Position numbers and translations under genes: made by a program | Notes under the pieces: generated by a model | What the model saw: only the letters and a program-made list of their open reading frames with translations | Told to the model about the DNA's origin: nothing | Database searches by the model: none | From: Candidatus Micrarchaeota archaeon | GTDB lineage: Archaea > Micrarchaeota > Micrarchaeia > Norongarragalinales > Norongarragalinaceae | Direction: 5' to 3' | NCBI GenBank assembly: GCA_037444485.1 | Contig: JBBIMI010000018.1 | Location: forward strand, 1-17,323 | Length of the DNA: 17,323 nt | Part shown: positions 4,042 to 17,168 of the stretch, in pieces | How positions within the stretch are numbered: the first letter of the stretch is position 1 | Layout of the letters: every line of letters begins with the position of its first letter

Positions 4042-4100
4042 TTAATCAAAATCACCTTCGCAAAACGAATAGAATACGCGAAAAGTTATGAAAAACCAAG

Positions 4101-4108
4101 TTTATAAA
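4101..4108. promoter_or_regulatory. TATA box (TTTATAAA) with purine-rich BRE-like flank, between divergent rps6e and the 4171 ORF
   Basis: GAAAAACCAAG-TTTATAAA-AA. A second TTATAAAT lies at about 4118-4125. Confidence 0.6.
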
Positions 4109-4170
4109 AACCACTCGTTATAAATGGTTATGAACGCGTAATAAACTCTGGTTGGAGGGGTGACAAAAAA

Positions 4171-4497
4171 TTGGCTGGATTAAAAAAAATTCTTTTGAGG
4201 CTGCCTATGAGAATCGAAATTCCTAAAGTAAAAAATGAAATTCCTAAAGTAAAAAATTTTTTCGTTACCGCTGAATTAGTAAAGTGAGATAAGTATAACT
4301 ATGTAGTAGTGCTACCTGAAGGCTTGAGAGGAAAAATAGAACTCAAAGTGCATACTGAAGTGCAGGGACCTGAAGATCCTGAAAAAGTAAAAAGCGACGT
4401 TTTAAAATTCTTGGAAAACAAGAAAGAGCTAATAAAAAGAAAAATTATTAATATGGCATTATATGGAAAAGAAATGGAATCCGTTAAAGTAACTTGA
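4171..4497 (+). pseudogene. Small orphan gene interrupted by one in-frame TGA (4285-4287), or a 62-aa hypothetical CDS at 4309-4497
   Basis: Strong SD GGAGGGGTGA (4154-4163) precedes TTG 4171. The frame reads MAGLKKILLRLPMRIEIPKVKNEIPKVKNFFVTAELVK*DKYNYVVVLPEGLRGKIELK...KVT*, continuous with the track ORF 4309-4497. Confidence 0.55.
4216..4257 (+). repeat. Perfect 21-bp in-frame tandem duplication (EIPKVKN x2)
   Basis: GAAATTCCTAAAGTAAAAAAT at 4216-4236 and 4237-4257. Confidence 0.95.
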
Positions 4498-5077
4498 TTT
4501 GCTTTGGTTTAATCAATCGTTTCGTTTTTCCAGTCTTTAAATAGCCAAGCAGGTTTCTCTCGATTTCCTTAAATGTTTGAGTTTTAATCATCGTCTTCGA
4601 AGCTTTTATTAAGTCTTTCGACGACTTCAATTCAAGGAAAGGCAGGTTTTTCTTTAAATTACTCAAAGCTGTATTATGTTGGTTTAACGCTGCTCTAATC
4701 AGTTTTTCAGAATACTTGACTTCAATGTTTGAACTCGGCTTTTCAACCGTCTTCAGCAGCCCTGGAAGCGCAGTTGTAAAAAAAATCGATTTCGCGGCCT
4801 TGCTTACCTTTAAGGGCTCACCTTCTGCGCCCGATTCAAGCACTACTAGAAAATGCGCTGCTGGATGAAAGACCGACAAAAGCTTACGCTTGTTCTTGAT
4901 TCCAACTCCAGTCACAACCAAATGCGATTCATTTAAAACTTTCCGCAAGCTTTTTTTGATTCCGAAAGCTTTCAAGATGTTAGTCAAAGCCTTAATTTCA
5001 GGAGCCTTAAACTCTATCTTGATGTTCTGGTCATAGTATTCGCGAAGTTCTTCAGGGATCTTCCGGCCAAAGAACAT
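4484..5077 (-). CDS. Hypothetical Lys-rich protein (197 aa)
   Basis: Long ORF with ATG start, a T-rich TATA-like element (TTTTTTAAT on the - strand) about 25 nt upstream and no SD, so probably leaderless. No family recognised. It overlaps the convergent 4309-4497 ORF by 14 bp. Confidence 0.75.
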   Translation of the reverse strand: MFFGRKIPEELREYYDQNIKIEFKAPEIKALTNILKAFGIKKSLRKVLNESHLVVTGVGIKNKRKLLSVFHPAAHFLVVLESGAEGEPLKVSKAAKSIFFTTALPGLLKTVEKPSSNIEVKYSEKLIRAALNQHNTALSNLKKNLPFLELKSSKDLIKASKTMIKTQTFKEIERNLLGYLKTGKTKRLIKPKQIKLL

Positions 5078-5347
5078 GAAAAGGTTTGCGTAAAAGAATT
5101 AAAAAACATTAACTTCAGGGAAATTGTTCGATTAACTAGCTTTTTTAGCAGTCGCTTGGTTTTCAAGTAGACCACATAGATTTGCAGCTGCGAGGCGGCA
5201 ATGCGTTTCCAATCGAGTCAAACCTTTAAAATCCGAAATTATTTAAACAATGCCGCTTTGTGTTTCAAAGAATTAGTTGATGTATGTAGAATACGATAAA
5301 AACAAGTTTTTTATTCGACACCCGCATTACTCGAAGTGATGATTCCA

Positions 5348-6040
5348 ATGAAGAAGAAACTCGCTATATCACTCGGCGGTTCTCTCCTCTACAAGAATGG
5401 TTCGATAGACGCGCACTACGTGCGCGAAATCTGCGCCTTGCTTCTCGCTGAAAGCCGCGCTTGCGCGATTGCTTTAAGCGTTGGCGGGGGTGCGCCTTCC
5501 CGCGAGTACGCGCGTGCAGTGCGCGAACTGACGGGAAACGAGTTTCTTGCCGACCGGGCAGCGATTTACGCTACTCGCGCGAACGCGACCGTGGTGCTCA
5601 GCGCACTTGGTGAACGCGCTTTTCCGAAAGTAATCACTGATTTCGATGACGCTGCAGTAGCGTTGAATGAAGGCAAGATTCCGGTGTGCGGCGGAATGAT
5701 TGAAGGGATTACTACTGACACTGTTGCGTTGTTGCTCGCGGAACGCATTGGCGCGAAGAAGCTCGTCAACTTAAGCAAAGTCGACGCGATTTATTCAGGT
5801 GACCCGCGCGTCGATGCGCGCGCGAAGAAACTCTCGCTTCTCTCGCACAAGCAGCTTATCGAGCTCGCGGCGCGGTTTGATGAACGCCGCGCGACAACTA
5901 ACTTCGTGTTCGACTTGATGGCTTGCAAGCTCGCGGCTAGGTCGAACATAGAACTGCATTTCGTGGACGGGCGTGACTTGAAGCAAGTGAAGAACGCGGT
6001 TGAGGGAGTAAAGCATTCCGGCACGGTCGTAAAAAACTGA
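5348..6040 (+). CDS. pyrH: Uridylate (UMP) kinase, archaeal type
   Basis: ISLGGSLL, VGGGAPSREY, DRAAIYATRANA, GGMIEGITTDTVALLLAE, NLSKVDAIYSGDPR...AKK, VFDLMACKLAARS, GTVV. Start ATG 5348; alternatives are 5336 and 5339. Confidence 0.95.
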   Translation: MKKKLAISLGGSLLYKNGSIDAHYVREICALLLAESRACAIALSVGGGAPSREYARAVRELTGNEFLADRAAIYATRANATVVLSALGERAFPKVITDFDDAAVALNEGKIPVCGGMIEGITTDTVALLLAERIGAKKLVNLSKVDAIYSGDPRVDARAKKLSLLSHKQLIELAARFDERRATTNFVFDLMACKLAARSNIELHFVDGRDLKQVKNAVEGVKHSGTVVKN

Positions 6041-6075
6041 TTCAGTGTTTTACCATGAATTAAATTTTTTTTGGT

Positions 6076-7704
6076 TTAAAGCTTTTTTTGGGTTTTTGCA
6101 CCCGAATTTTTTAAGTCTCTCGAGAGAATAGCGATTACGTCCCAATTAATTAATTCTTTTTGTTTTAAATTCTTGATTTCTTTCCCTAAATCTTTTTTTA
6201 TTTTATTTATTATTTCAGTCATATTTTTTTCTGGTGGGTAGTCTAGTGAAAGAACATCGCCTTGAACCACTTTGTCGTTTGCTCCCAAATATTTTTTAAG
6301 GTGAACCTTGATTTTTGAAATTACGCCATTTGGAATACTGCGGGATTGTTTAAGCTTTGCTCCTTTAACTGAAAGACCTCTAAATGAATCATCATTCAAA
6401 ACCGCTAGTTCCCGAACAGTGGTTCCGGCCGGGACTTTAAAACTTTTCTTTTCTCCGTCTGGTTGAATTACTGAAACCGTGATGAAATCGCGTCCTAAAA
6501 TTTTTTTCAGCGTATAAAACGCATTTTGTTCTCCTATTGTTTCCTTCAATAAATCAAGATACCCAAATTTTTTCGTTTCCTTGCTTAACTCGCCTGACCT
6601 TAAAACCCTGCATGGCGGGCCGTACTCGTTAAAGGCATGCATTTTCTCGCCGACGATTTGGAGTTCTACAAGGTTTTCAGCGTTTTTCTCTGTTCCAGGA
6701 AGCCAGCCAATCAAGTGGTAAGCCTTGTAACCGTTTCTCTTCGGGTTTTCAACATAATTTTTTTCTGCGGGCGTGCCTCTCGGCAAGTAAGGCTCGCCTG
6801 CCAGCGTGAAACCGTTTTCTTTAAGCACTTCAGCTAATGGGATAACGTCTCTGCCTCGTTTTACGATTATTCGCAAGCCTTTCACGTCGTGAATTTTTTT
6901 GTATGAAATCCCGCGTGCCATCGCTTTCCTGTAAATACTGCTAGGAGTCTTAACTCTGTGCTGTACTTCCACGACATCAACTAGAGAACCTCTCGTTGGA
7001 ATAATCTTTCCGTTTTCATCAATCTTCAAGCCAAGAAAGTCAAGCAAGTTTTCCTTCAATCGTAAAAGCTTTTCCTCGTAATTTTGTTTTTTAATCCAGT
7101 CGCTTATTTCCTCGTAGTAACTCTTGTTCTCGAGCTTAAAAACCAAGTCCTCCATATCTGAAACTAGTTTATAGTAATTCAATGCTTGCGCGATTGGGGT
7201 TAGAGTCTTCACTTTTAGTATTTGCGTATTTAACGACTTGTCAAACTTTTTGCTTTGGGTTGCAACAGGTTTCAGTTTTTCGAATTCTTGTGCGGCATGC
7301 ACTAGGAAAGCCTGCGGGTCGTTCGTTTGCGTAATCAAGTCAATCAATTGTTTGACGTCCGTCTCAATCTTTGGTTTTATTTCAATCGCTGTCCTAAGAG
7401 CATTAAAGTTTTTAACGATTTCAATAACGCGAACATTGTTTAAGGTTATTGGTTTGCTTCCGCCTTTAAGTCTTATTTCCTTCAAATTCAATGATTCAAT
7501 CTTTTCTTTCGGTAGCCCGTGAAGCAAACCGGCGACTATAGTATCTGCTTCAGCGTTGTTTTTTAAGAGAATGAGTGCGGTATTCCAGTAATGCTCGAAG
7601 TCTTTACGCTGCTCTTTAGGCTGCATTCCAGGATAAGTGTCGTAATAAGCTTTTCTAGCCACTTCCTTAATCTCGTTCAAATGATCTTCAGTGAATTGAA
7701 CCAC
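6076..7704 (-). CDS. Long RelA/SpoT homologue (RSH): degenerate HD hydrolase, synthetase domain and TGS-like domain; no ZFD/ACT
   Basis: Pseudo-HD: HYWNTALIL...ADTIVAGLLHG. Linker PIAQALNYYKLVSDMEDLVFK resembles PLAHRLG...ELEDLxF. Synthetase: HRVKTPSSIYRK, IHDVKGLRIIV, NYVENPKRNGYKAYH, VELQI...MHAFNEYG. TGS: VIQPDGEKKSFKVPAGTTVRELA...GAKL...QGDVLSL. Confidence 0.88.
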   Translation of the reverse strand: MVQFTEDHLNEIKEVARKAYYDTYPGMQPKEQRKDFEHYWNTALILLKNNAEADTIVAGLLHGLPKEKIESLNLKEIRLKGGSKPITLNNVRVIEIVKNFNALRTAIEIKPKIETDVKQLIDLITQTNDPQAFLVHAAQEFEKLKPVATQSKKFDKSLNTQILKVKTLTPIAQALNYYKLVSDMEDLVFKLENKSYYEEISDWIKKQNYEEKLLRLKENLLDFLGLKIDENGKIIPTRGSLVDVVEVQHRVKTPSSIYRKAMARGISYKKIHDVKGLRIIVKRGRDVIPLAEVLKENGFTLAGEPYLPRGTPAEKNYVENPKRNGYKAYHLIGWLPGTEKNAENLVELQIVGEKMHAFNEYGPPCRVLRSGELSKETKKFGYLDLLKETIGEQNAFYTLKKILGRDFITVSVIQPDGEKKSFKVPAGTTVRELAVLNDDSFRGLSVKGAKLKQSRSIPNGVISKIKVHLKKYLGANDKVVQGDVLSLDYPPEKNMTEIINKIKKDLGKEIKNLKQKELINWDVIAILSRDLKNSGAKTQKKL

Positions 7705-7727
7705 GAGTAAAGAAAGTGTTCAACCTA

Positions 7728-7737
7728 GTATAAAAAA
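7728..7737 (-). promoter_or_regulatory. TATA box of the RSH gene (likely leaderless transcript)
   Basis: TTTTTTATAC on the - strand, ending about 24 nt before the GTG start at 7704. No SD motif. Confidence 0.6.
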
Positions 7738-7746
7738 GCGTGTGTA

Positions 7747-7772
7747 AAAACAAGTTTTCAAAACAAGTTTTC
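7747..7772. repeat. 13-bp tandem repeat of a quasi-palindrome upstream of the RSH promoter
   Basis: AAAACAAGTTTTC at 7747-7759 and 7760-7772. Each copy contains AAAAC-AA-GTTTT dyad symmetry. Confidence 0.85.
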
Positions 7773-7836
7773 AAGAAAGCAATTCCGCGCTTTCCACAAT
7801 TGCTTTTTTTCTAAAAGCAAGCTGTTGGGCTTTGTT

Positions 7837-10248
7837 TCAACGCGTTCTCGCTTTCTTTAACAAAACGCGTTTTTCAGCGCTTGAGATGATGCGACGCGTT
7901 ACGTCAATAACGTCCGGATTCACGCTAACGCTGTCGATTCCGAATTCCACGAGCGCTTCAGCAAATTCAGGGTAGACGCTTGGAGCTTGACCGCACAACG
8001 AAACGCGCACGCCCCGCGAGTGACAAACGCGAATCAGTTTCTCTATTGACTTCAACACAGCTTCATTCCGTTCATCGAAGTCTTCTGCGACTAACGGGTC
8101 GTCCCTGTCAACGCCGAGCGTGAGCATCGTCAAATCATTGCTTCCAATACTCATGAAATCGATTCCAACTTCACAGAATTCCTTCGCGAGAATAACAACG
8201 CTCGGCACTTCACACATGATTCCGAATTTGAAGTCGTGACTCTGCAGCAAGCCTTCACTCTCAACGATTTTCTTGCATTCTTCCAATTCGCGGACTGTCC
8301 GCACGAAGGGAATCATGAGCCACAAGTTCTTCATTCCATACTGGTCGCGCACTTTCTTCAACGCCCGCAGCTCGAGGCGGAAGACGTCCGGCTGTTTGAC
8401 GTAACGGTAACAACCGCGAAAGCCAATGAGCGGGTTTTCTTCCTTCGGCTCGAACTCCTCGCCGCCCCGCAAGCCGCGGTATTCGTTCGTCTTGAAGTCA
8501 GTAGCGCGATAGATTACTGGCCTCGGGTGGAATGGAGCGCAAATCTTGCGCAAGCCACGCGCCAAGCCGTCAATAAACTCTTGCTCTCGGCGTTCGGCAA
8601 TGAGCTTCTTCGGGTGAACGCCCAAGCCGGCAATCATGAACTCAGCGCGCAGCAGCCCCACTCCGTCGACGTTCTGCTTCGAAACAGCTTCAGCCTGGTC
8701 GGGCTCCGCGAGGTTGACGTAAACCTTCGTGCCGGTAACAATCGGAGTCGCGAGCGCAACGTGTTCTGCGACTTTTACCTCGACAGGCTTTTCCTCTTCA
8801 ATAGCAACAGCGCCTTCGTAAACAACTCCTCGCTTGGCGTCTACGGTAATCGCCTGTCCGTCCTGCAGAATGCGGGTCGCCTGCTGCGTTCCCACGACGC
8901 ACGGCACGCCGAGCTCGCGCGAAACAATTGCAGCGTGGCACGTCATCCCGCCGCTGTCCGTCACGATGGCCTTCGCGCGCTTCATCGCAGGCACGAAGTC
9001 AGGACTTGTCATTTCGGTGACTAGCACATCGCCTTCGCGGACTTTGTTCAACTCGCGCAAGTCCAAAACGATTTTGACGGTCCCGCTTGCGACTCCGGGC
9101 GAAGCGCCCAATCCCTGAAGCAAAACGCGGGCGTTCTCGAGCGAAACGCTCGGCGCTTTCGAAACCGCTGTTGCAAGCGCTTCGGGCGAGGGCAGCACAG
9201 CCGCCGCTTCAACCGGCGCGAGCGCAGGCGCTGCCGCAGGCGCGGCTGCAGGCGCGGGTTCGCCGCGCTGGCGCTTGAGCGTCGTGACAGCCCGCGTTTG
9301 AACTATGTAAACGTTCTTGCCTTCAACCGCCCATTCTATGTCTTGCGGCCAGCCGTAGTGTTCTTCAATCCGCCGCGCGAGTTTCGCGAGCACGCGAATC
9401 TCTCCGTCACTCAACTTCTGCGTTTCTTGAAGTTCTTCAGGAACTTCAACGCGTTGCGTCTCGCCTCCCGGTTTGCGGACCACCATGTCTTTCTGCCGCG
9501 CGAGTTTCTTGTCTAAAACCTGTAAACTCGTTTTGTCTACAACGTAACGGTCTGGAGTAATCGAGCCAGAAACAACTGACTCACCTAAACCCAGTCCTGC
9601 TTCGATGACGATTTTGTTTTCGTCGCCTGACATTGGGTCTACAGTAAAAATAACTCCGGCCTTGTCGCTGTCAACCATTTTTTCGACAATGACAGCAATT
9701 CCTGTTTCCACTTGCGAAAAACCTTGTTGCTTGCGGTAGTAAATCGCGCGCGCTTCAAACAATGAAGCCCAACATTTTTGCACGGCCTTCACAACGTTTT
9801 CGCCACCCGCAATGTTCAGGAAAGTCGCTTGTTGGCCTGCGAACGAGAATTTAGGTAGGTCTTCCGCAGTAGCGCTGCTCCTGATTGCTACGAACACTTC
9901 CTCACCGATTGAGGGAATCAAGTCGACTCCGCACAACTTGTTGTAAGCGCGAATGATTTGCGAACGCGTTTCTTCGCCCATCTGTCCCTGGAGTATCGCG
10001 CGCTTGATTTCGTGGCTCGCTTGCTGGAGCGCGTTCGAATCCTGCACGTTCAAGTCGTCAGTTTTGCGTTTGATGAGTTCGTCAATCTTGTTTTTCTTAA
10101 CGAATTCAAAGTAAGCGTCGGCGCACACTACGAACGCAGGCGGAACGGGAAGATTCAAGTTAAACATTTCAGCCAAGTTCGCGCCCTTTCCGCCGGCTAT
10201 CTTCAAACTGTCTTTGCTTAACTCGTTAAGCCAGTAAACCGCTTTCAA
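7837..10248 (-). CDS. ppsA: Phosphoenolpyruvate synthase (pyruvate, water dikinase)
   Basis: GGKGANLAEM, AIRSSATAEDLPKFSFAGQQATFLN, PQDIEWA, VQTRAVTT, phospho-His motif GGMTCHAAIVSRELG, DGVGLLRAEF, EENPLIGFRG, SIGSNDLT, CGQAPS. Start set at TTG 10248 (MKAVYWLNEL); the track gives 10290. Confidence 0.97.
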   Translation of the reverse strand: MKAVYWLNELSKDSLKIAGGKGANLAEMFNLNLPVPPAFVVCADAYFEFVKKNKIDELIKRKTDDLNVQDSNALQQASHEIKRAILQGQMGEETRSQIIRAYNKLCGVDLIPSIGEEVFVAIRSSATAEDLPKFSFAGQQATFLNIAGGENVVKAVQKCWASLFEARAIYYRKQQGFSQVETGIAVIVEKMVDSDKAGVIFTVDPMSGDENKIVIEAGLGLGESVVSGSITPDRYVVDKTSLQVLDKKLARQKDMVVRKPGGETQRVEVPEELQETQKLSDGEIRVLAKLARRIEEHYGWPQDIEWAVEGKNVYIVQTRAVTTLKRQRGEPAPAAAPAAAPALAPVEAAAVLPSPEALATAVSKAPSVSLENARVLLQGLGASPGVASGTVKIVLDLRELNKVREGDVLVTEMTSPDFVPAMKRAKAIVTDSGGMTCHAAIVSRELGVPCVVGTQQATRILQDGQAITVDAKRGVVYEGAVAIEEEKPVEVKVAEHVALATPIVTGTKVYVNLAEPDQAEAVSKQNVDGVGLLRAEFMIAGLGVHPKKLIAERREQEFIDGLARGLRKICAPFHPRPVIYRATDFKTNEYRGLRGGEEFEPKEENPLIGFRGCYRYVKQPDVFRLELRALKKVRDQYGMKNLWLMIPFVRTVRELEECKKIVESEGLLQSHDFKFGIMCEVPSVVILAKEFCEVGIDFMSIGSNDLTMLTLGVDRDDPLVAEDFDERNEAVLKSIEKLIRVCHSRGVRVSLCGQAPSVYPEFAEALVEFGIDSVSVNPDVIDVTRRIISSAEKRVLLKKARTR

Positions 10249-10362
10249 AACCAAAACCGCCTTTAATTGTTTTAAAGAAAACAAACGCAAAACAAGTATT
10301 TATTGATTAATAACGATTAATTAATAACGCGGGAAACAAGTCGATACTTATAACTCGGTAAT

Positions 10363-10788
10363 TTAATGCTTTTGCAGAAAACCTTCAGCTTTCTCTAAAA
10401 CTTGTTTTGAATTCTTGAACGTCAAACGATCGCGCGCCTGCTGGAAAGGAAGCCAATCGAAACCAACGTGCTCGAAAGACAACTTTACCTCGCGCGAAAG
10501 CGATTCCGCCAACAGAAAAACAACGTCTTTGCTCACTAATTCTTTTTTCTCGCGAAAAAAGTAGTGAATAGACTCGCGAAACCCTTGAATGATTTTCACT
10601 CTCGAAATCCCTGTTTCCTCGCGTAACTCGCGTAACGCGGTTTCCTCTTCACTTTCACCTTCTTCCACGCCGCCTTTCGGAAAATCCCAGTGGCCGGACT
10701 CGTAATGCAACAGCAAGTACTCGCGCCCGCGCACTTCACCAGCGCGCGAGAAAACAATCAATCCTACAGACTTCCTCTTCACAACCAA
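10363..10788 (-). CDS. Nudix hydrolase, asymmetrical bis(5'-nucleosyl)-tetraphosphatase (Ap4A hydrolase)-like
   Basis: YLLLHYESGHWDFPKG plus Nudix box GVEEGESEEETALRELREETG, then Y.F...KDVVFLLA and LSFEH..FDW. SD GGTGAAGGGG upstream. Confidence 0.9.
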   Translation of the reverse strand: MVVKRKSVGLIVFSRAGEVRGREYLLLHYESGHWDFPKGGVEEGESEEETALRELREETGISRVKIIQGFRESIHYFFREKKELVSKDVVFLLAESLSREVKLSFEHVGFDWLPFQQARDRLTFKNSKQVLEKAEGFLQKH

Positions 10789-10807
10789 ACCCCTTCACCT
10801 TTCCCCT

Positions 10808-11554
10808 TCACCTTTCCCTGCGCTTGAATTCTCGCTGCACTTCGCCGAAAGCCGCGAACAACGCTTGCGCCTCGTCATCGCTTGCTGGCGCGCGCTCTAG
10901 AACCCGCTTAAACGCGAGGGAAACCTTCTTCTTGTCGCGCACGCGCGGCAAACGCGCAAGCGTTTCTTCAAACAACTTGACTAACGACGAGATTTTTTTC
11001 TTTGACGCGAAATCAAAGAAAGCGCGCGGCTTACCCCGCGCTTCACGCGCGCGCGTCAAGCGAACCAATTCGTACAACGTTACTGCAACCGCGTGCGACA
11101 AGTTCAGCACCGAGTGCGCGGAACTCGTCGGAATAACCGCAACCACGTTACACTCCTCGAACTCCCCCTCGCTCAAGCCCGAGTCCTCAGGCCCGAACAC
11201 GAGCGCGGCTTCTTTACACCGCAGCACTTTTTCAAAGCAGCCCTCAAGCGGCAGGCAGTTTTTGAATGCGCGCGAGCGGAAACGCGACGGCACGCCAGTA
11301 GTGCCAACAACGAAATCGCATCCGCGCACCGCCTCCTTCAAAGAACCATGGATTGCGGCGTCACGCAACACTTCCTCCGAATGCTTGGCGAAAAGCTTGG
11401 CGGTAAAACCAAGCGCGCAGCGGGGCGCGACTAAAACGAGTTTCTTGACTCCGAAGTTCTTCATGGCGCGCGCTACGCTGCCGACGTTCAACCCGTGCAT
11501 TGGTTTTACGAGAACCACGCGCGCTTTCGTGACGACCCTCTCCGTTCGAGTCAA
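10808..11554 (-). CDS. trmJ: SPOUT tRNA (C32/U32)-2'-O-methyltransferase, TrmJ/TrmH family
   Basis: RVVLVKP..GLNVGSVARAMKNFG, AKHSEEVL, VVGTTG, ALVFGPEDSGLS..E, IPTS....LNLSHAVAVTLYEL, plus a TrmJ-type C-terminal helical domain. Confidence 0.92.
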   Translation of the reverse strand: MTRTERVVTKARVVLVKPMHGLNVGSVARAMKNFGVKKLVLVAPRCALGFTAKLFAKHSEEVLRDAAIHGSLKEAVRGCDFVVGTTGVPSRFRSRAFKNCLPLEGCFEKVLRCKEAALVFGPEDSGLSEGEFEECNVVAVIPTSSAHSVLNLSHAVAVTLYELVRLTRAREARGKPRAFFDFASKKKISSLVKLFEETLARLPRVRDKKKVSLAFKRVLERAPASDDEAQALFAAFGEVQREFKRRER

Positions 11555-12981: not shown

Positions 12982-14487
12982 TCAAACGACTTCGAGAATA
13001 ACGCGCTCTATTTCCACGACCTTTAATTTTTTCGCAACGTCAAGGCCGAGCGCGAGTTTTTCCTTGCTGCTCGCGCGGAGTTCAAACAACTCGTCACCCG
13101 CACTCACGCGCTGGCCCTTCGAAACCTTTAAAACCATTCCTGCTTTCTTGTCGACTGGCGCGCCGAGAGCGCGGCAAACGCGGGAAATAATTTTGTTGTC
13201 AACGTGCGCGACTTTCCCTTCTTCATTCGTCTTGAAAGAACCGACGAACTCTCCTATCCTGATGTCTTCAGGCTTGACGTCCGGCTTTCCGCCTTGAGCA
13301 TCAATTATTTCTCGAAACTTTTCGAGCGCCTTGCCGGAAGTAATCTGGTACTTCGCAATCTTGTAACCCTCGCTGCGCGTGAATCCCTTCACGCTACTCA
13401 ACAACACGCCCGCCATCAAACAAGCTTTCTCAACTAGCGACTCGCTACCTTTCCCTGAAAGCGCAAGCAAAACCTCCCGCGCCTCTAGCGCTGGACCAAT
13501 AGAATTAATGAGCGGCTCGCTGCCTTCAGTAATAACGACTTGTAGTTCCATACCCATGTGTTTTCCAAGCGCTTCAAAACTCTGCGCCAACTCGCGCGCC
13601 TTGTCAATGCGCTCTACTTTCGCGCCCTGCCCCACCGGGATGTCGAGCAAGACGTACTGCGCGCCCTCAGCTTTTTTCTTCGCTAGAATGCTTGAAAGCA
13701 ACAACGGCTCCGGATCCAAGCGCAGCGGGTTACGAATCTTGATGAGCTTGTCGTCGGCAGCAGCAATGTTTAACGCGCCGCCCCAAATCAAGCAACCGCC
13801 CGTCTTCTCGACAACGCGTTCAGCTTGCGAAACAGAAAGCGAAACTGGCGCGAGCACTTCCATCGCGTCAGCTGTTCCGCTCGCGCTGCTTATCGCGCGC
13901 GTGGCGGTCTTCGGAATCGTTAGTCCAAGCGAAGCGATTATTGGCACTATGAGCATGCTCACGCGGTCGCCGGCAATTCCGCCGATGCTGTGTTCTGAAA
14001 CCACGGGCTCGCGCTTGAAGTGAAGCGAGCCGCCTGAAGCGTAAATCGCTTTCGTCAACGCGATGGTTTCTTCAGTGCTTAAGCCTTTCGTGTAAATGCC
14101 GCCTATGAAAGCCGCGAGCTCGGCGTTCGAAAGTTTTTCATCCATCAAGTCAGCAATGATTCCGTTTACCTCGCCGTCAGAGAGAATGCCGCCGTCCAGC
14201 TTTTTGCGAATCGCGTCGAGACTCTGCGGGCGCGGGGCTAACTCGACAGAAATCATTTGCCCTTTTTTCGCGTTGAGCGCCTTCGCTGCTTCATCAAACA
14301 ACCCGATTTCCCCGCGTGCGACAAGCGAACGCGAGTGGTCTACGATCGCGACAATGCTTTTTCCGCCTGCAGAAAGCTTAACCCGGTCAAGCACGTTGAA
14401 ATCGAGTTCCTTCGCCTGCTCTTCATTCAACGCCACTTCGTTCTGTCCCTGCTCGAAGTCTATCAACTTCGCCTTTAACTCCACCAT
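12982..14487 (-). CDS. deoA: AMP phosphorylase (thymidine/pyrimidine-nucleoside phosphorylase superfamily, archaeal NMP phosphorylase)
   Basis: N-terminal barrel (EVALNEEQAKELD...DRV...GEIGL), SLDAIRKKLDG, HSIGG.AG, IPKT.TRAISSASGTADAMEVL, WGGALNIAAADD, LDP...SSILAKK, DIPVGQGAKV, GPALEAREVL, IIDAQGG, GAPVDKKAG. Start ATG 14487, about 24 nt downstream of a TATA-like element. Confidence 0.95.
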   Translation of the reverse strand: MVELKAKLIDFEQGQNEVALNEEQAKELDFNVLDRVKLSAGGKSIVAIVDHSRSLVARGEIGLFDEAAKALNAKKGQMISVELAPRPQSLDAIRKKLDGGILSDGEVNGIIADLMDEKLSNAELAAFIGGIYTKGLSTEETIALTKAIYASGGSLHFKREPVVSEHSIGGIAGDRVSMLIVPIIASLGLTIPKTATRAISSASGTADAMEVLAPVSLSVSQAERVVEKTGGCLIWGGALNIAAADDKLIKIRNPLRLDPEPLLLSSILAKKKAEGAQYVLLDIPVGQGAKVERIDKARELAQSFEALGKHMGMELQVVITEGSEPLINSIGPALEAREVLLALSGKGSESLVEKACLMAGVLLSSVKGFTRSEGYKIAKYQITSGKALEKFREIIDAQGGKPDVKPEDIRIGEFVGSFKTNEEGKVAHVDNKIISRVCRALGAPVDKKAGMVLKVSKGQRVSAGDELFELRASSKEKLALGLDVAKKLKVVEIERVILEVV

Positions 14488-14510
14488 GAGCAAAGCTAAA
14501 GCAACGCGCA

Positions 14511-14528
14511 TTAAAAAACGTTTTTTAA
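14511..14528. promoter_or_regulatory. Perfect 18-bp palindrome overlapping the AMP phosphorylase TATA position
   Basis: TTAAAAAACGTTTTTTAA is self-complementary and lies in the divergent deoA / surface-protein intergenic region. Confidence 0.6.
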
Positions 14529-14654
14529 AACGCGGTTTTTTGCTTCAAGCTCAAAAAACGCTTAAAATGAAGTTTTATAAACCACGTTTACATTACTTTT
14601 TTAATTCAAAACCAGCACCGTTTGGGCGCGCCCGCCCGAAAGATAGAGGTAAAG

Positions 14655-17168
14655 ATGCAGTTGAAAGGAAGAATTCTTCTCAAAACCAGTTTGCTCGCTG
14701 TTTCACTCGTCCTGCTTTCACAATTCGCTTCAAGCCTGGATGTTTCAGCATGCGGCGACTTGAATTCCACGAACACGTACTACAAGCTCACTCAAAACAT
14801 TGAGGCGGGTTACACTTGCTTCAACGTCACCGCCAGCAACATCACTCTCGATTGCCAAGGCTTCAACATCAACTACAGCACGTCTACCGACGGCGGCATC
14901 GGCATTAACGTAACAGAACAAAACGACACGGTAATCAAAAATTGTAAGTTGAATGCAACCAACTCGAGCGTAAACCAACCGACCGCAATTTACTTGAGAT
15001 ATTCAAACAACTCGCAGATTTACAACAACACGATTACAGTCAACAGCACGACTGACATTGCGGTTTGGGTTGAATACGATTCAAACAACAACACGATCAA
15101 CAACAACACCATAATCGAATCGTACGACGCGTTCTGGTTTAGGCAAACCATGAACAACACGGCAAACAGGAACAACATCACATCGCAGTTAAGCGGCGCC
15201 TTCGGGATTTACGCCGAAGCCACTTCAAACAGCACCTTCGAAAACAACAACATTAGCATGGTAGATAGCAGTTACGCCTTCATGCTATTGAACGCAAGCA
15301 ACTACAACTTCCTGAACAACAATAATATTTACGTCACCGACTCCAGCTACGGAATTTACTTGGAAACCGCAAACGGCAACACCATCGACAACAACCCAGT
15401 TTACCTGACGAGCAATGGAAGCGGCATTTACGTATCGAATTCGAACAACAACATGATAACCAACAGCATCATAAACGCTTCCGGCACCAACGACTACGGA
15501 ATACTGCTTTCCGAAGCAAACTATTCCAACATAAGCAACTACGTAATCAAGGGAAGCAATGTTTCAAACGGCTTTGGAATTACAGCCTTCTACAGCGCGT
15601 TCTACAATCTTTTTTCGAACGTCACTATAGAAAACTTCACTTACGGAGTTCACGCTGCTGGTTCTCTAGGCATTTGTGATTGTTTCAATCCAGGACCGAA
15701 AAAACCTCTGAGGAACAGTAACGAAAACGTTTTCGACAGGATTACTATAAACAATGCGGATTACGGTTACTACACGAACAACCCGCCTAGCGTCTCGTGC
15801 TGGTGCCCGTTCCCTCCGCCAGGTCACGAGAGTGTTAGGAGAGGCTATCACACGTACCACAACACGCTGTCCAACGCAATCATTACAAACGCGATCGACG
15901 GAATATCAATAAACGGCAGCGAAGAAAACACGTTCCTAAACAATACAATCACCAATTCTTCCGGCAAGGCAATCTACATGACGGATTATGCGCATGCGAT
16001 CACGTCAAGCATCGTCAAAAGCAATACAATCAACAAAGCGAACTACTGCATATTCCTGGATGCTCCGGGAGAGGGGATCTACAACAATAGCTTCTATTAC
16101 AACAGACTGTCTTCATGCGGTTACGGAATAACTCTCGATAACAATGCATACGATAACGTGTTCGCGGACAGTGCCATCGGGCAATCAAACAACGCGGACG
16201 TTTACGCCCCAAGCGTCGCCGTAAGCACGTTCACAAACACGTTCCTGAACACTACTTTCAACAAGACGAACGCCACTATAAACAACGGCGGAATAGTCGT
16301 GCAATGGTACTTGAGAACGCGCGTGATGGACACGAGCGGCAGCGGAATCGAAAACGCTGAAGTAAACATCACCGACGTGAACGGCACGCTGGTGTACAGC
16401 GTTAGTACGGGAGCGGACGGTTACACGCAGACGCAGAACGTCAGCGAATTCTGGCAGAACGCCACTAGCCTAGCTAACTACACTCCGCACACGGTTTCAG
16501 CGATGACAAATCCGAGCGCGAGCGCCACTACCCAAATGACTGAAAACAGGGAAGTGATTCTCACGCTGGACTACCAACCTCCCGCAATCTCGAACGTGCG
16601 CATCGTCGACGTCACGCAAAACACGGTCACCATCGCTTGGGACACGAGCAAAAACGCGAATGAAACCATTGAATATGGAACCAGCGCGGACTATGGAACG
16701 AATTACACGAATGCAGCGCGCGCCACCACGCACTCGGCTTTCATAACCGGCTTGAACAAAGCGACCACTTACCACTACAAGATTCACGCTTGCGGAACAA
16801 CAAACTGCGCCAACACCAGCGACTACACGTTTGACACAGTAGGCGAGACGGGCGGTTACGGGGGAGGCACGGGCGCAGGCGGAGGAGCGCTTCCAACCCC
16901 CAGCCCAATTCCAACGCCGACTGAACAAGCAAGCCCAAGCGCGCCGCAAGCGCCAAGCGCGGGGCCCGCGGGCGAAGCTGGAGCACAAGGCGGAACAACA
17001 ACACCCGAAGCGACCGCGCAGCCAAGCTTAGAAGCGAGTCCAAGTCCAACGCCGCAGCCGACCGGCGCGGGAGTCAACGTGCCTTTGGCCGTCGGACTGA
17101 CGATAGTGCTCGCCGCGGCCGCATATTTTATAGCAACGCGAGCGAGATGGTTTCAAAAGAAAAAGTGA
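14655..17168 (+). CDS. Large cell-surface glycoprotein: NosD-like right-handed parallel beta-helix, beta-sandwich, FN3, Pro/Thr/Ala linker and C-terminal TM anchor
   Basis: SD GAGGT before ATG 14655. Signal peptide; N-cap ACGDLNS...YYKLTQNI...CFNVTASNITLDCQG; many GIYL..SNNN.I.NN.I (PbH1) repeats; WYLRTRVMDTSGSGIENAEVNITD sandwich; FN3 (VTIAWDT...IEYG...ITGL..ATTYHYKI); GG-rich and PTPSP linker; TM segment plus KKK; very many N-x-S/T sequons. Confidence 0.88.
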   Translation: MQLKGRILLKTSLLAVSLVLLSQFASSLDVSACGDLNSTNTYYKLTQNIEAGYTCFNVTASNITLDCQGFNINYSTSTDGGIGINVTEQNDTVIKNCKLNATNSSVNQPTAIYLRYSNNSQIYNNTITVNSTTDIAVWVEYDSNNNTINNNTIIESYDAFWFRQTMNNTANRNNITSQLSGAFGIYAEATSNSTFENNNISMVDSSYAFMLLNASNYNFLNNNNIYVTDSSYGIYLETANGNTIDNNPVYLTSNGSGIYVSNSNNNMITNSIINASGTNDYGILLSEANYSNISNYVIKGSNVSNGFGITAFYSAFYNLFSNVTIENFTYGVHAAGSLGICDCFNPGPKKPLRNSNENVFDRITINNADYGYYTNNPPSVSCWCPFPPPGHESVRRGYHTYHNTLSNAIITNAIDGISINGSEENTFLNNTITNSSGKAIYMTDYAHAITSSIVKSNTINKANYCIFLDAPGEGIYNNSFYYNRLSSCGYGITLDNNAYDNVFADSAIGQSNNADVYAPSVAVSTFTNTFLNTTFNKTNATINNGGIVVQWYLRTRVMDTSGSGIENAEVNITDVNGTLVYSVSTGADGYTQTQNVSEFWQNATSLANYTPHTVSAMTNPSASATTQMTENREVILTLDYQPPAISNVRIVDVTQNTVTIAWDTSKNANETIEYGTSADYGTNYTNAARATTHSAFITGLNKATTYHYKIHACGTTNCANTSDYTFDTVGETGGYGGGTGAGGGALPTPSPIPTPTEQASPSAPQAPSAGPAGEAGAQGGTTTPEATAQPSLEASPSPTPQPTGAGVNVPLAVGLTIVLAAAAYFIATRARWFQKKK

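What the first reader, a model, noticed from the sequence alone, without database searches (positions are those of the whole stretch)
6076..7704. Bacterial-type long RelA/SpoT homologue in an archaeon, rebuilt as hydrolase-dead and C-terminally truncated
Seen in sequence: collinear pseudo-HD, synthetase and TGS domains in an otherwise archaeal locus, with an archaeal TATA box about 24 nt upstream. The hydrolase is eroded: HD is HG (7516-7521), ED is lost, and KLADRLHN reads HAAQEFEK. Synthetase motifs RxKxxxSxxxK, DxxGxR, PKxNGYxxxH and ExQ remain. The protein ends soon after TGS with no ZFD/ACT. Established: long RSHs drive the bacterial/plastid stringent response, and archaea are generally thought to lack (p)ppGpp signalling apart from scattered RSH genes. 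Inference: this could be an undescribed archaeal alarmone synthetase, or a nucleotide-transferring toxin/effector used by a host-dependent archaeon.
Basis: partly seen in the sequence, partly recalled or inferred. Interest (0 to 1): 0.85.

Follow-up and report, generated by a model that had tools for sequence, protein, structure and literature searches.

The report
Hydrolase-dead, shortened RelA/SpoT enzyme in Micrarchaeota
A tiny DPANN archaeon (Micrarchaeota) carries a real, fast-evolving relative of the bacterial alarm-signal enzyme RelA/SpoT that keeps the part that makes (p)ppGpp but has lost the part that destroys it and the parts that dock on the ribosome; such genes are widespread in this group, have been noted before, but have never been tested.

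Summary
Window 6076-7704 (-) is an intact 542-aa gene collinear with long RelA/SpoT homologues: a pseudo-HD domain, a synthetase domain and a TGS-like beta-grasp, ending 51 residues after it. The hydrolase metal and catalytic residues are gone, and all eleven synthetase residues checked are kept. The contig is archaeal (Micrarchaeota).

The gene is not a one-off. RelA_SpoT-domain genes occur in 25 of 68 genomes of the order and 105 of 401 of the phylum sample. On a tree they largely follow archaeal families, apart from conventional long RSHs. The order PEP synthase -> RSH -> <- UMP kinase recurs in a second metagenome and a sister family. The protein evolves 4-5 times faster than its flanks, yet dN stays below dS.

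Differences from bacteria: the tRNA-CCA-stacking histidine of TGS is missing, there is no ZFD or ACT, and no other HD_4 hydrolase was found in this genome.

Best reading: a synthetase-only alarmone pyrophosphokinase that is not controlled in the bacterial ribosome-dependent way.

A 2021 paper listed RelA/SpoT for four other DPANN phyla, and this scan has reported similar genes on other DNA. I rate it a new variant of a known kind, of moderate interest.

The parts
6076..7704 (-). RSH gene, 542 aa plus stop; truncated long RelA/SpoT homologue [h-S-TGS]
7120..7704 (-). Pseudo-HD (hydrolase-fold) domain, residues 1-195. H38 and H62 are kept; D78 equivalent is G63, ED is lost, D144 equivalent is Q139, N148 equivalent is K143
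   Evidence: HD_4 24.7 bits; 27.5 bits in the six-frame genome search. Residues. SAH structures match model residues 1-193 to 3-199 at Z 10-11.5
6610..7119 (-). Synthetase (SYNTH) domain, residues 196-365, with R250 K252 K260 D273 R278 K322 N324 Y326 H330 E347 Q349
   Evidence: RelA_SpoT 64.7 bits. Residue table. SAS 5ded Z 14.3 over model 197-403
6493..6609 (-). Low-confidence linker, residues 366-404
   Evidence: pLDDT below 50 for residues 364-390
6232..6492 (-). TGS-like beta-grasp, residues 405-491, with a clade-specific insertion of about 20 residues and no histidine at the CCA-stacking position
   Evidence: 3hvz Z 7.0 and Z 8.4. No Pfam TGS hit. The only His in 405-491 is H468, inside the insertion
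6079..6231 (-). Short helical tail, residues 492-542, matching only the start of the helical domain of long RSHs. No ZFD and no RRM/ACT follow
   Evidence: 6htq_x: model 405-539 aligns to chain 391-489, Z 8.6. The end is conserved in the clade
7729..7736 (-). TATA-like box TTTTTATA, 25-32 nt upstream of the GTG; candidate archaeal promoter for a leaderless or short-leader mRNA
   Evidence: similar box in L059. Not tested for function
7837..10290 (-). PEP synthase, co-directional upstream neighbour; the adjacency recurs in relatives
   Evidence: NF005057 959 bits; synteny
5336..6040 (+). Archaeal-type UMP kinase (PyrH), convergent downstream neighbour; adjacency recurs in L059 and L070
   Evidence: TIGR02076 180 bits against a cut-off of 158

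Best explanation
The gene encodes a synthetase-only member of the RelA/SpoT superfamily. It descends from a long RSH and is inherited mainly vertically within Micrarchaeota.

Shown: the fold and domain order (pseudo-HD, SYNTH, TGS-like beta-grasp, short helical tail); loss of the hydrolase metal and catalytic residues; retention of every synthetase residue checked; the conserved C-terminal end; conserved gene order; dN below dS.

Inferred: the SYNTH domain transfers the beta,gamma-pyrophosphate of ATP to the 3'-OH of GDP or GTP, giving (p)ppGpp plus AMP. D273 and E347 would hold Mg2+, R250/K252/K260/R278 would bind ATP, and Y326 would stack on the acceptor base. The pseudo-HD would remain as a structural and allosteric partner of SYNTH, as in RelA.

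The TGS lacks the CCA-stacking histidine and the ribosome-binding ZFD and RRM/ACT domains are absent. Activation by deacylated tRNA on stalled ribosomes is therefore unlikely, and the TGS plus tail more probably autoinhibit or bind a different ligand or partner.

With no HD_4 hydrolase found in this genome, the product would have to be removed by another enzyme (for example a Nudix such as 10363-10788) or by dilution.
For: Homology and collinearity: Pfam RelA_SpoT 64.7 bits; TIGR00691 aligned over residues 38-430; PDB profile hits 1vj7 at E 8e-22 and 6yxa over positions 16-506; Foldseek top hits are Rel, RelA and SpoT; VIA Z 25.9 to 6yxa.

Active sites. All 11 SYNTH positions are kept in 5 of 5 own-clade rows. 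D264, Y308 and H312 equivalents are kept in 28 of 28 divergent phylum rows, Q325 in 27, K243 in 27, R241 in 25 and E323 in 23. By contrast, 0 of 28 divergent rows and 0 of 3 clade rows keep the full HD set, against 44 of 67 other library rows.

Constraint, window against L059: RSH dN 0.518, dS 1.93. Pseudo-HD 0.53, SYNTH 0.48 and TGS 0.47, so no domain is decaying faster than the others. The 49 distinct reading frames taken from the fetched loci were stop-free and matched an RSH profile; 47 of these 49 were sent to Pfam, with L038 and L039 left out.

Archaeal, non-chimeric setting. Neighbours are pyrH_arch, AMP phosphorylase, S6e and an RPA-like SSB. The nearest named PyrH relatives are Candidatus Micrarchaeota. 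The same order PEPS -> RSH -> <- PyrH is seen in L059 and L070. A Logan contig spans 4727-11500 with no differences, though it may come from the source sample.

Vertical inheritance: family labels need 10 changes on the tree, against a minimum of 8 and a shuffled mean of 20.1.

Role of the TGS histidine: PMC7797070, passages read. The window has no His at that place under either the MAFFT or the HMMER alignment.
Against: No enzyme activity, product or transcript is shown; no RNA run was listed.

(p)ppGpp had not been detected in any archaeon as of PMC8646023 (passage read).

A synthetase without a hydrolase is toxic in bacteria (Atkinson 2011, passage read). This genome, 95% complete, shows no HD_4 match other than the gene's own pseudo-HD.

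The charged motif before the PK-NGY loop reads A-E-K-N where RelSeq has R-F-K-D, so acceptor preference cannot be read off.

Conservation of the SYNTH residues does not separate (p)ppGpp synthetases from (pp)pApp synthetases or tRNA pyrophosphokinases.

dN is 4-5 times that of the flanks, and the gene's GC (0.392) lies at the 5th percentile of the genome, so constraint is weak. dS is close to saturation, so the dN/dS value of about 0.27 is rough.

TIGR00691 scores 72 bits against a cut-off of 499.

The grouping of all divergent archaeal rows may owe something to long-branch attraction; one search warns about this and used a quick search only.
Confidence: 0.55

Rival explanations
1. An active pyrophosphokinase with another acceptor. 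It could pyrophosphorylate the 3'-CCA end of tRNA, as CapRel, FaRel2 and PhRel2 do, or make (pp)pApp, as FaRel and Tas1 do. The beta-grasp and the basic surface would then serve RNA binding.
For: The SYNTH residues kept are shared with those enzymes. CapRel (7ztb Z 10.2), Tas1 (6ox6 Z 7.8) and FaRel2 (8pu4 Z 7.5) all match the SYNTH domain. PADLOC PDC-S33 hits residues 246-357 at 49.7 bits. The protein is basic: pI 9.5 overall, and 9.8 for both the TGS and the tail. The R-x-K-D motif is altered. Evolution is fast.
Against: Long-RSH NTDs (Z 21-26) and RelQ/RelP SAS (Z 12-14) match better than the toxin types. There is no adjacent antitoxin-sized ORF. The gene is single-copy in a conserved housekeeping position. 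The TGS lacks the CCA-stacking His.
Confidence: 0.2
2. A pseudoenzyme or slowly decaying relic: the fold is kept for a binding or scaffolding role, or for none, without catalysis.
For: dN is 4-5 times that of the flanks, and GC is low like that of the equally fast orf197. The HD site is already dead. The gene is missing from many relatives: 43 of 68 genomes of the order gave no match, though many are incomplete.
Against: The frame is intact here and in relatives. All 11 catalytic SYNTH positions are kept in the clade despite 37-57% overall identity. dN is below dS in every domain where dS could be computed.
Confidence: 0.12
3. A host-directed effector, or a toxin of a toxin-antitoxin or defence module, used by an episymbiotic archaeon.
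For: Fast evolution. Micrarchaeota are host-dependent (established knowledge, not tested here). No cognate hydrolase was found in the genome.
Against: There is no signal-peptide-like N-terminus (read). There is no partner ORF and no defence-island context: neighbours are PEP synthase, UMP kinase, TrmJ and S6e. Position is conserved across families.
Confidence: 0.06
4. A bacterial contaminant or chimeric join in a metagenome bin.
For: The gene's GC (0.392) is low for the genome (0.475).
Against: Archaeal marker genes lie on both sides of it on one contig. The same gene order appears in an independent metagenome contig, L059, and in a 1.30-Mb contig of G031. A 9640-base Logan contig bridges 4727-11500. 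Contig GC is 0.478 against 0.475 for the genome.
Confidence: 0.01

Closest known systems
Bifunctional Rel of Firmicutes and Streptococcus (B. subtilis Rel, PDB 6yxa and 6htq; RelSeq NTD, 1vj7)
   Same: Same domain order HD-SYNTH-TGS-(helical start). Best structural matches: Z 25.9 and 21.9. All SYNTH residues are shared.
   Different: The HD site is dead here. TGS H420 is missing. There is no ZFD and no RRM/ACT. Sequence identity is about 18-20%. TIGR00691 scores 72 bits against a cut-off of 499.
E. coli RelA (monofunctional [hS] long RSH; PDB 5iqr, 5kpv)
   Same: Works alike in one respect: a degenerate HD domain is kept beside an active-looking synthetase. Structural match Z 21.6-23.
   Different: RelA keeps H432 in its TGS, plus the ZFD and RRM that dock it on the ribosome (PMC7797070). 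The window's protein has none of these. It lies on the divergent side of the 99* split in the tree, so the loss of hydrolase is independent.
Short HD-SYNTH-TGS RSHs of about 470-500 aa in metagenomes (P0014, P0045, P0100, P0076, P0102)
   Same: Similar length, and the same truncation after TGS.
   Different: The four of them that are in the residue table (P0045, P0076, P0100, P0102) keep the full HD set. P0014 has Pfam HD_4 and TGS on record. P0045, P0076 and P0100 fall among the conventional long RSHs in the tree. The library gives no organism for them.
RelA/SpoT genes annotated in DPANN (PMC8407392, mSystems 2021)
   Same: The same general phenomenon: RSH genes in DPANN archaea, there ascribed to transfer from Bacteria (passage read).
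   Different: That passage lists Diapherotrites, Woesearchaeota, Pacearchaeota and Nanoarchaeota, not Micrarchaeota. It gives no domain or active-site analysis. Its figure S34 is on figshare and was not seen.
Classical long RSH of family f23 in the same phylum (L035-L040, about 650 aa)
   Same: Same phylum, and a similar distance from the S6e gene.
   Different: f23 proteins score HD_4 146 bits, RelA_SpoT 133, TGS 59 and ACT_4 43. They have an intact HD set and the TGS His, and they nest among conventional long RSHs.

Membership tests
Long RSH (Rel/RelA/SpoT) | N-terminal HD-fold domain directly followed by a SYNTH domain | tested here: met
   Profile alignment to 1vj7 covers positions 16-384. 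VIA Z 25.9 to 6yxa; SAH folds match residues 1-193 to 3-199 at Z 10-11.5.
Long RSH (Rel/RelA/SpoT) | Hydrolase residues H53, H77-D78, E81-D82, D144, N148 (RelSeq numbering, verified on the 1vj7 alignment; their roles are recalled, not checked) | tested here: not met
   P0001 has H, H-G, K-E, Q and K at these positions. This feature defines bifunctional members only; RelA also lacks it.
Long RSH (Rel/RelA/SpoT) | SYNTH catalytic set R241 K243 K251 D264 R269 K304 N306 Y308 H312 E323 Q325 | tested here: met
   All 11 are present in P0001 and in 5 of 5 clade rows.
Long RSH (Rel/RelA/SpoT) | TGS domain after SYNTH | tested here: met
   Met by fold only. 3hvz matches at Z 7.0 and Z 8.4, 64 of 64 residues, rmsd 1.7-1.8 A, in two models. 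There is no Pfam TGS hit. The isolated C-terminal part finds nothing in PDB by sequence. In one search other beta-grasps are tied within 1 Z.
Long RSH (Rel/RelA/SpoT) | CCA-stacking histidine of TGS (H420 in Bsu Rel, H432 in Eco RelA) | tested here: not met
   The only His in residues 405-491 is H468, inside an insertion. The role of the histidine is from PMC7797070.
Long RSH (Rel/RelA/SpoT) | Helical, ZFD/CC and RRM/ACT C-terminal domains | tested here: not met
   Only 51 residues follow the TGS. There is no ACT hit. All six clade relatives in the alignment end at the same place.
Long RSH (Rel/RelA/SpoT) | NCBIfam TIGR00691 (spoT_relA) curated cut-off | tested here: not met
   72 bits against a cut-off of 499.2.
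RelA subgroup ([hS] of beta- and gamma-proteobacteria) | Orthology with proteobacterial RelA | tested here: inconclusive
   The window's clade lies with the divergent archaeal rows across a 99* branch from 45 conventional rows. However, the library rows carry no organism names, and NF008124 scores only 36 bits against a cut-off of 728.
Small alarmone synthetase (SAS) | Single SYNTH domain protein | tested here: not met
   There are 195 residues of HD fold before the SYNTH domain, and a TGS after it.
toxSAS / CapRel-type toxins | Adjacent antitoxin gene or fused antitoxin domain; mobile or defence context | tested here: not met
   No ORF fits in the 35-bp and 132-bp gaps that flank the gene. 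Neighbours are housekeeping genes. The PADLOC hit covers the SYNTH region only. Toxicity itself was not tested.

The most novel reading that the evidence does not exclude
Micrarchaeota, and probably other DPANN, run a working alarmone system of their own. It would rest on a vertically inherited, rapidly evolving, hydrolase-less long-RSH derivative. Its His-less TGS would read a signal other than deacylated tRNA on the ribosome, and it would be linked by gene order to PEP synthase and UMP kinase, that is, to ATP/AMP and nucleotide balance. That would be the first functional (p)ppGpp-type signalling shown in Archaea.
Probability: 0.3. Interest if true: 0.8.

Novelty: new variant of a known kind. 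Interest (0 to 1): 0.5.

Why it matters
Whether any archaeon uses (p)ppGpp is still open. The 2011 RSH survey found no long RSHs in archaea (PMC3153485). A 2021 LC-MS study noted that (p)ppGpp had never been detected in an archaeon (PMC8646023).

This gene gives a concrete, compact enzyme of 542 aa on which the question can be tested in E. coli or in vitro. It is also a natural experiment in stripping a long RSH. It shows what remains when the hydrolase site, the tRNA-reading histidine and the ribosome anchors are all lost while the synthetase site stays under selection.

The value is tempered. The family in DPANN has been mentioned in print, this scan has reported sister cases on other genomes, and no function is shown.

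Tried and rejected
1. Close relatives with DNA. The search for related loci with the clade alignment found none in genome contigs or metagenome contigs. P0003 as query gave only a weak 70-residue hit in a Bryobacterales record, L060, which I regard as irrelevant. P0004 as query gave L059.

2. Names for relatives. The listing of cluster members gave no organism. One member is called '(p)ppGpp synthase/HD superfamily hydrolase' by JGI.

3. Expression. No RNA holder was listed, so there is nothing to say on expression.

4. dN/dS within sister clades. dS was saturated (returned as -1) in 6 of 9 pairs, so only the window-L059 comparison with its flanks is used.

5. TGS by sequence alone. Pfam gives no hit. 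phmmer of residues 399-542 against PDB gives only chance hits at E of 0.4 or more.

6. Conserved Nudix neighbour. tblastn with the window's Nudix found nothing in the 22 context loci searched, so the Nudix link rests on this window only.

7. A shared 200-aa neighbour. orf197 is related only to orf201 of L059. The roughly 200-aa genes next to the RSH in L064 and L070 are P-loop kinases related to each other, not to orf197.

8. The S6e proximity shared with the f23 classical RSH could mean positional orthology. With 15 query genes tried, it may equally be chance, so it is not used as evidence.

9. tRNA scan of the window: none found.

10. Not done: complex prediction (I claim no binding partner), a rooted or taxon-labelled tree, an AU test, and a genome-wide promoter survey.
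Full report
THE GENE. Window 6076-7704 on the minus strand is an uninterrupted frame of 542 codons starting with GTG. A relative, P0175, begins MAQFTE where the window reads VVQFTE, which supports this start. Pfam gives RelA_SpoT at 64.7 bits (cut-off 27; residues 249-362). HD_4 scores 24.7 bits (cut-off 27.2; residues 26-164). There is no TGS or ACT hit. NCBIfam's long-RSH model TIGR00691 aligns over residues 38-430 but scores 72 bits against a cut-off of 499. The protein is therefore a clear but very divergent RSH.

STRUCTURE. A profile of the window's clade matches the RelSeq catalytic fragment 1vj7 (E 8e-22, positions 16-384) and B. subtilis Rel 6yxa (positions 16-506). An AlphaFold2 model built on a 104-row alignment has pLDDT 85 and pTM 0.77. 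Foldseek ranks Rel, RelA and SpoT first. VIA gives Z 25.9 to 6yxa (330 residues aligned). Small alarmone hydrolases match model residues 1-193 to 3-199 at Z 10-11.5. Small alarmone synthetases match about 195-405 at Z 12-14. The TGS domain 3hvz matches 406-491 at Z 7.0, rmsd 1.8 A, 64 of 64 residues. Ribosome-bound Rel 6htq matches 405-539 against chain residues 391-489.

That alignment contained true TGS domains, which could bias the model. I therefore folded the protein again with only its seven own-clade sequences. Confidence dropped (pLDDT 65), but the strand and helix order was the same. 3hvz was again the best match for 406-491 (Z 8.4, rmsd 1.7 A), tied within 1 Z with DRG1, ThrRS-type and ubiquitin-like beta-grasps. 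By sequence alone the C-terminal part finds nothing.

ACTIVE SITES. The printed 1vj7 alignment lets RelSeq numbering be read directly. Hydrolase positions H53, H77, D78, E81, D82, D144 and N148 read H, H, G, K, E, Q and K in the window. Two of the four residues that I recall as Mn2+ ligands are therefore gone, and so is the ED pair. All eleven synthetase positions checked (R241, K243, K251, D264, R269, K304, N306, Y308, H312, E323, Q325) are kept.

Across alignment A3, 5 of 5 own-clade rows keep all eleven. Among 28 divergent rows from the phylum, D264, Y308 and H312 are kept in 28, K243 and Q325 in 27, K251 in 26, R241 in 25 and E323 in 23. None of the 28 keeps the full hydrolase set, against 44 of 67 other library rows. 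The residue roles are recalled from the RelSeq literature and were not checked here.

TGS HISTIDINE AND C-TERMINUS. PMC7797070 (passages read) states that H420 of B. subtilis Rel, equivalent to H432 of E. coli RelA, stacks on the tRNA 3'-CCA end, and that H-to-E substitution abolishes activation. It also reports that deleting ZFD and RRM compromises the synthetase's response to ribosomes. In the 6yxa alignment H420 lies in the stretch RIHSE. The window has no histidine there under either the HMMER or the MAFFT alignment. The only His in residues 405-491 is H468, inside a clade-specific insertion. The protein stops 51 residues after the beta-grasp, and all six clade relatives stop at the same place. 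The truncation is therefore a feature, not an assembly artefact.

THE ORGANISM AND THE CONTIG. The window is a whole 17.3-kb contig of a 0.96-Mb genome, 95% complete with 0.2% contamination. Its other genes include archaeal-type UMP kinase, AMP phosphorylase, ribosomal protein S6e, an RPA-like SSB, TrmJ and PEP synthase. The nearest named relatives of the UMP kinase are Candidatus Micrarchaeota and Micrarchaeia. This agrees with earlier notes of this scan on the same genome. Contig GC is 0.478 against 0.475 for the genome. The RSH gene alone is at 0.392, the 5th percentile of 1-kb windows. A 9640-base Logan contig of run X1 covers 4727-11500 without a difference. X1 may be the source sample, so this is a different assembler rather than independent DNA.

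DISTRIBUTION. The window's own subfamily is tiny. Among 5.8 billion clusters only P0003 (55% identity) and P0004 (37%) are close. In the exhaustive representative search only two proteins reach E 1e-30, the window's own protein and the fragment P0027. RelA_SpoT-domain genes are nevertheless common in the lineage. They occur in 25 of 68 genomes of the order (11 of 22 high-quality ones; 4 of 25 in the window's family). They occur in 105 of 401 sampled genomes of the phylum (47 of 188 high-quality ones), very unevenly by family: f19 58/76, f20 6/6, f21 11/17, f23 6/7, but f13 1/94, f14 3/83 and f12 0/30.

Of 52 proteins scanned with Pfam, 50 reach the RelA_SpoT cut-off. Four f23 frames (three of about 650 aa, plus L040 at 912 aa stop-to-stop) and P0005 (631 aa) have HD_4 (132-146 bits), TGS and ACT_4. 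Of these, the f23 rows in the residue table keep the HD catalytic set, whereas P0005 does not. Most of the rest are 420-690 aa with a central SYNTH domain, weak or undetectable HD_4 and at best sub-threshold TGS (L004 21.2 bits, L031 20.0 bits). About ten are roughly 350-410 aa with a more N-terminal SYNTH domain.

PHYLOGENY. The tree is a quick IQ-TREE search with LG+C20 on 79 rows and 415 columns. The rows were chosen by me from A3: all 31 locus rows and 48 of the 73 library rows. A branch with SH-aLRT 99 separates 45 conventional long RSHs, including the f23 archaeal ones, from 34 divergent rows. Those 34 are 28 rows from the phylum plus P0001, P0003, P0004, P0027, P0028 and P0137. The window's clade is next to P0028 and then to L017, from the window's own family (support 88 and 86). 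Family labels need 10 changes, against a minimum of 8 and a shuffled mean of 20.1; 0 of 200 shuffles were as low.

Several caveats apply. Nine rows have very long branches, and the tool warns of possible false joins. The tree is unrooted. The library rows carry no taxon names. I read the result as mainly vertical descent within Micrarchaeota, from one or a few old acquisitions or from an ancestral long RSH. It does not settle the direction of any transfer.

GENE ORDER AND RATE. L059 is a 6-kb contig from another metagenome whose RSH is 95% identical to P0004. It shows PEP synthase -> RSH -> <- UMP kinase, then an orf197 homologue, exactly as in the window. Among the 20 context loci fetched from genomes, PEP synthase lies next to the RSH in 4: L062 and L063 (same genus), L064 and L070. 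All four are among the 13 loci from the same order. In L064 and L070 the two genes are co-directional and adjacent, and L070 also has the convergent UMP kinase. The contigs of P0003 (7006 bp) and P0004 (6516 bp) have the same lengths as contigs that carry UMP kinases 82-83% identical to the window's. This suggests the pairing holds there too, but it is an inference from the length match alone.

Between the window and L059, PEP synthase has dN 0.105 (85% amino-acid identity) and UMP kinase dN 0.127 (82%). The RSH has dN 0.518 (44% over aligned codons) and orf197 dN 0.671 (37%), at dS of 1.4-1.9. Within the RSH, pseudo-HD is 0.53, SYNTH 0.48 and TGS 0.47. The RSH is thus weakly constrained compared with its neighbours but not neutral, and the dead hydrolase domain is no freer than the synthetase.

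MISSING HYDROLASE. The only HD_4 match in this genome at E up to 0.1 is the gene's own pseudo-HD. In the order, 25 of 68 genomes have HD_4 matches. Most lie in frames that are not the RSH gene, for example G005:C1:98410, G001:C12:4025 and G019:C17:274. Relatives may therefore have separate hydrolases that this genome lacks or that were not assembled. A Nudix gene (10363-10788) lies two genes upstream on the same strand, but this link is not seen in other loci.

PROMOTER. TTTTTATA lies 25-32 nt upstream of the GTG, and L059 has TTTTAAAT 23-30 nt upstream of its ATG. This fits an archaeal TATA box with a leaderless or very short-leader mRNA. The motif is weak evidence by itself and was not tested.

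WHAT IT MOST LIKELY DOES. The evidence fits a synthetase-only alarmone pyrophosphokinase. By the conserved acceptor-loop tyrosine and the closest structural relatives, the most likely product is (p)ppGpp. The pseudo-HD would act as a structural and allosteric partner. The TGS-like domain would no longer read tRNA on the ribosome. Sequence cannot exclude another acceptor, such as tRNA 3' ends or adenine nucleotides; I put that at 0.2. A non-catalytic relic is at about 0.1. The toxin or effector idea and contamination have little support.

LITERATURE. Atkinson et al. 2011 state that archaea lack long RSHs and list only a few SAS and SAH (PMC3153485, passages). Braun et al. 2021 note that (p)ppGpp had not been detected in any archaeon (PMC8646023, passages). 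Li et al. 2021 report annotated RelA/SpoT in 69.0% of Diapherotrites, 41.7% of Woesearchaeota, 21.3% of Pacearchaeota and 19.0% of Nanoarchaeota, predicted to come from Bacteria (PMC8407392, passage). Searches for 'ppGpp' with 'DPANN', 'Woesearchaeota' or 'Micrarchaeota', for 'long RSH' with 'archaea', and a five-term search found no paper that analyses these proteins. Supplements that might list them were not seen.

EARLIER FINDINGS OF THIS SCAN. The scan has reported similar genes before on other DNA; 24 notes hold the search words. They include a Micrarchaeia case said to have lost its tRNA-sensing parts (e1-1533753), a hydrolase-dead DPANN case (e1-3195026) and an Iainarchaeota case (e1-918722).

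VERDICT. This is a new variant of a known kind: a truncated, hydrolase-dead, His-less-TGS long RSH lineage of Micrarchaeota. Interest is moderate. The open question it touches is real and directly testable, but the family is already on record and no function is shown.

Noticed in passing
window 7747-7772 (-); L059 2580-2617: A perfect tandem duplication (2 x 13 nt, GAAAACTTGTTTT) lies just upstream of the TATA-like box of the RSH gene. The orthologous spacer in L059 has an unrelated 2 x 19-nt tandem repeat at the same place.
   Followed up: partly
window 4484-5077 (-): orf197 has no family in Pfam, NCBIfam or PADLOC. Its GC is 0.391, as low as that of the RSH. It evolves even faster (dN 0.67 against L059, 37% identity) yet keeps its place beside UMP kinase in L059.
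   Followed up: partly
window, whole contig: Gene-to-gene GC is strongly heterogeneous. PEP synthase, UMP kinase, TrmJ and the methyltransferase are at 0.54-0.58 (95th-100th percentile of genome windows). The RSH and orf197 are at 0.39 (5th percentile). GC seems to track how constrained a gene is.
   Followed up: partly
G005:C1:98410-98622, G001:C12:4025-4411, G019:C17:274-720 and others: Stand-alone HD_4 (RelA/SpoT-hydrolase-type) frames of 230-480 aa occur in many genomes of the order at loci away from the RSH gene. None was found in the window's own genome.
   Followed up: no
L070 8397-9020 (+); L064 8608-9210 (-): A P-loop nucleotide-kinase-like gene (AAA_17/AAA_18; the two are 49% identical to each other) sits directly after the RSH gene in two relatives. 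It is absent from the window.
   Followed up: partly
L077 4121-8920; L078: In family f23 a classical 652-aa long RSH (intact HD, TGS, ACT) lies next to a DJ-1/PfpI gene and about 2.5 kb from S6e-eIF2gamma. The window's RSH is also about 2 kb from S6e. This could be positional orthology or chance.
   Followed up: partly
L062 6916-7326 (+): A PIN-domain gene is inserted between PEP synthase and the RSH, which is inverted there, in genus g33.
   Followed up: no
window 4042-4483: A 440-bp low-GC spacer lies between S6e and orf197. The Logan contigs of run X1 break into short pieces there, with variants and small indels, which suggests strain heterogeneity or repeats. No tRNA was found.
   Followed up: partly
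window 12982-14511 (-); 14622-17168 (+): An AMP phosphorylase (TIGR03327, 559 bits) belongs to the archaeal AMP pathway. An 848-aa beta-helix/NosD/fn3 protein is probably a surface protein.
   Followed up: no
P0005 (631 aa, metagenomic): A full-length RSH with TGS and ACT whose HD site is also degenerate (H-G, and D144 replaced by N). It shows that hydrolase loss without C-terminal truncation also exists. The organism is unknown.
   Followed up: no
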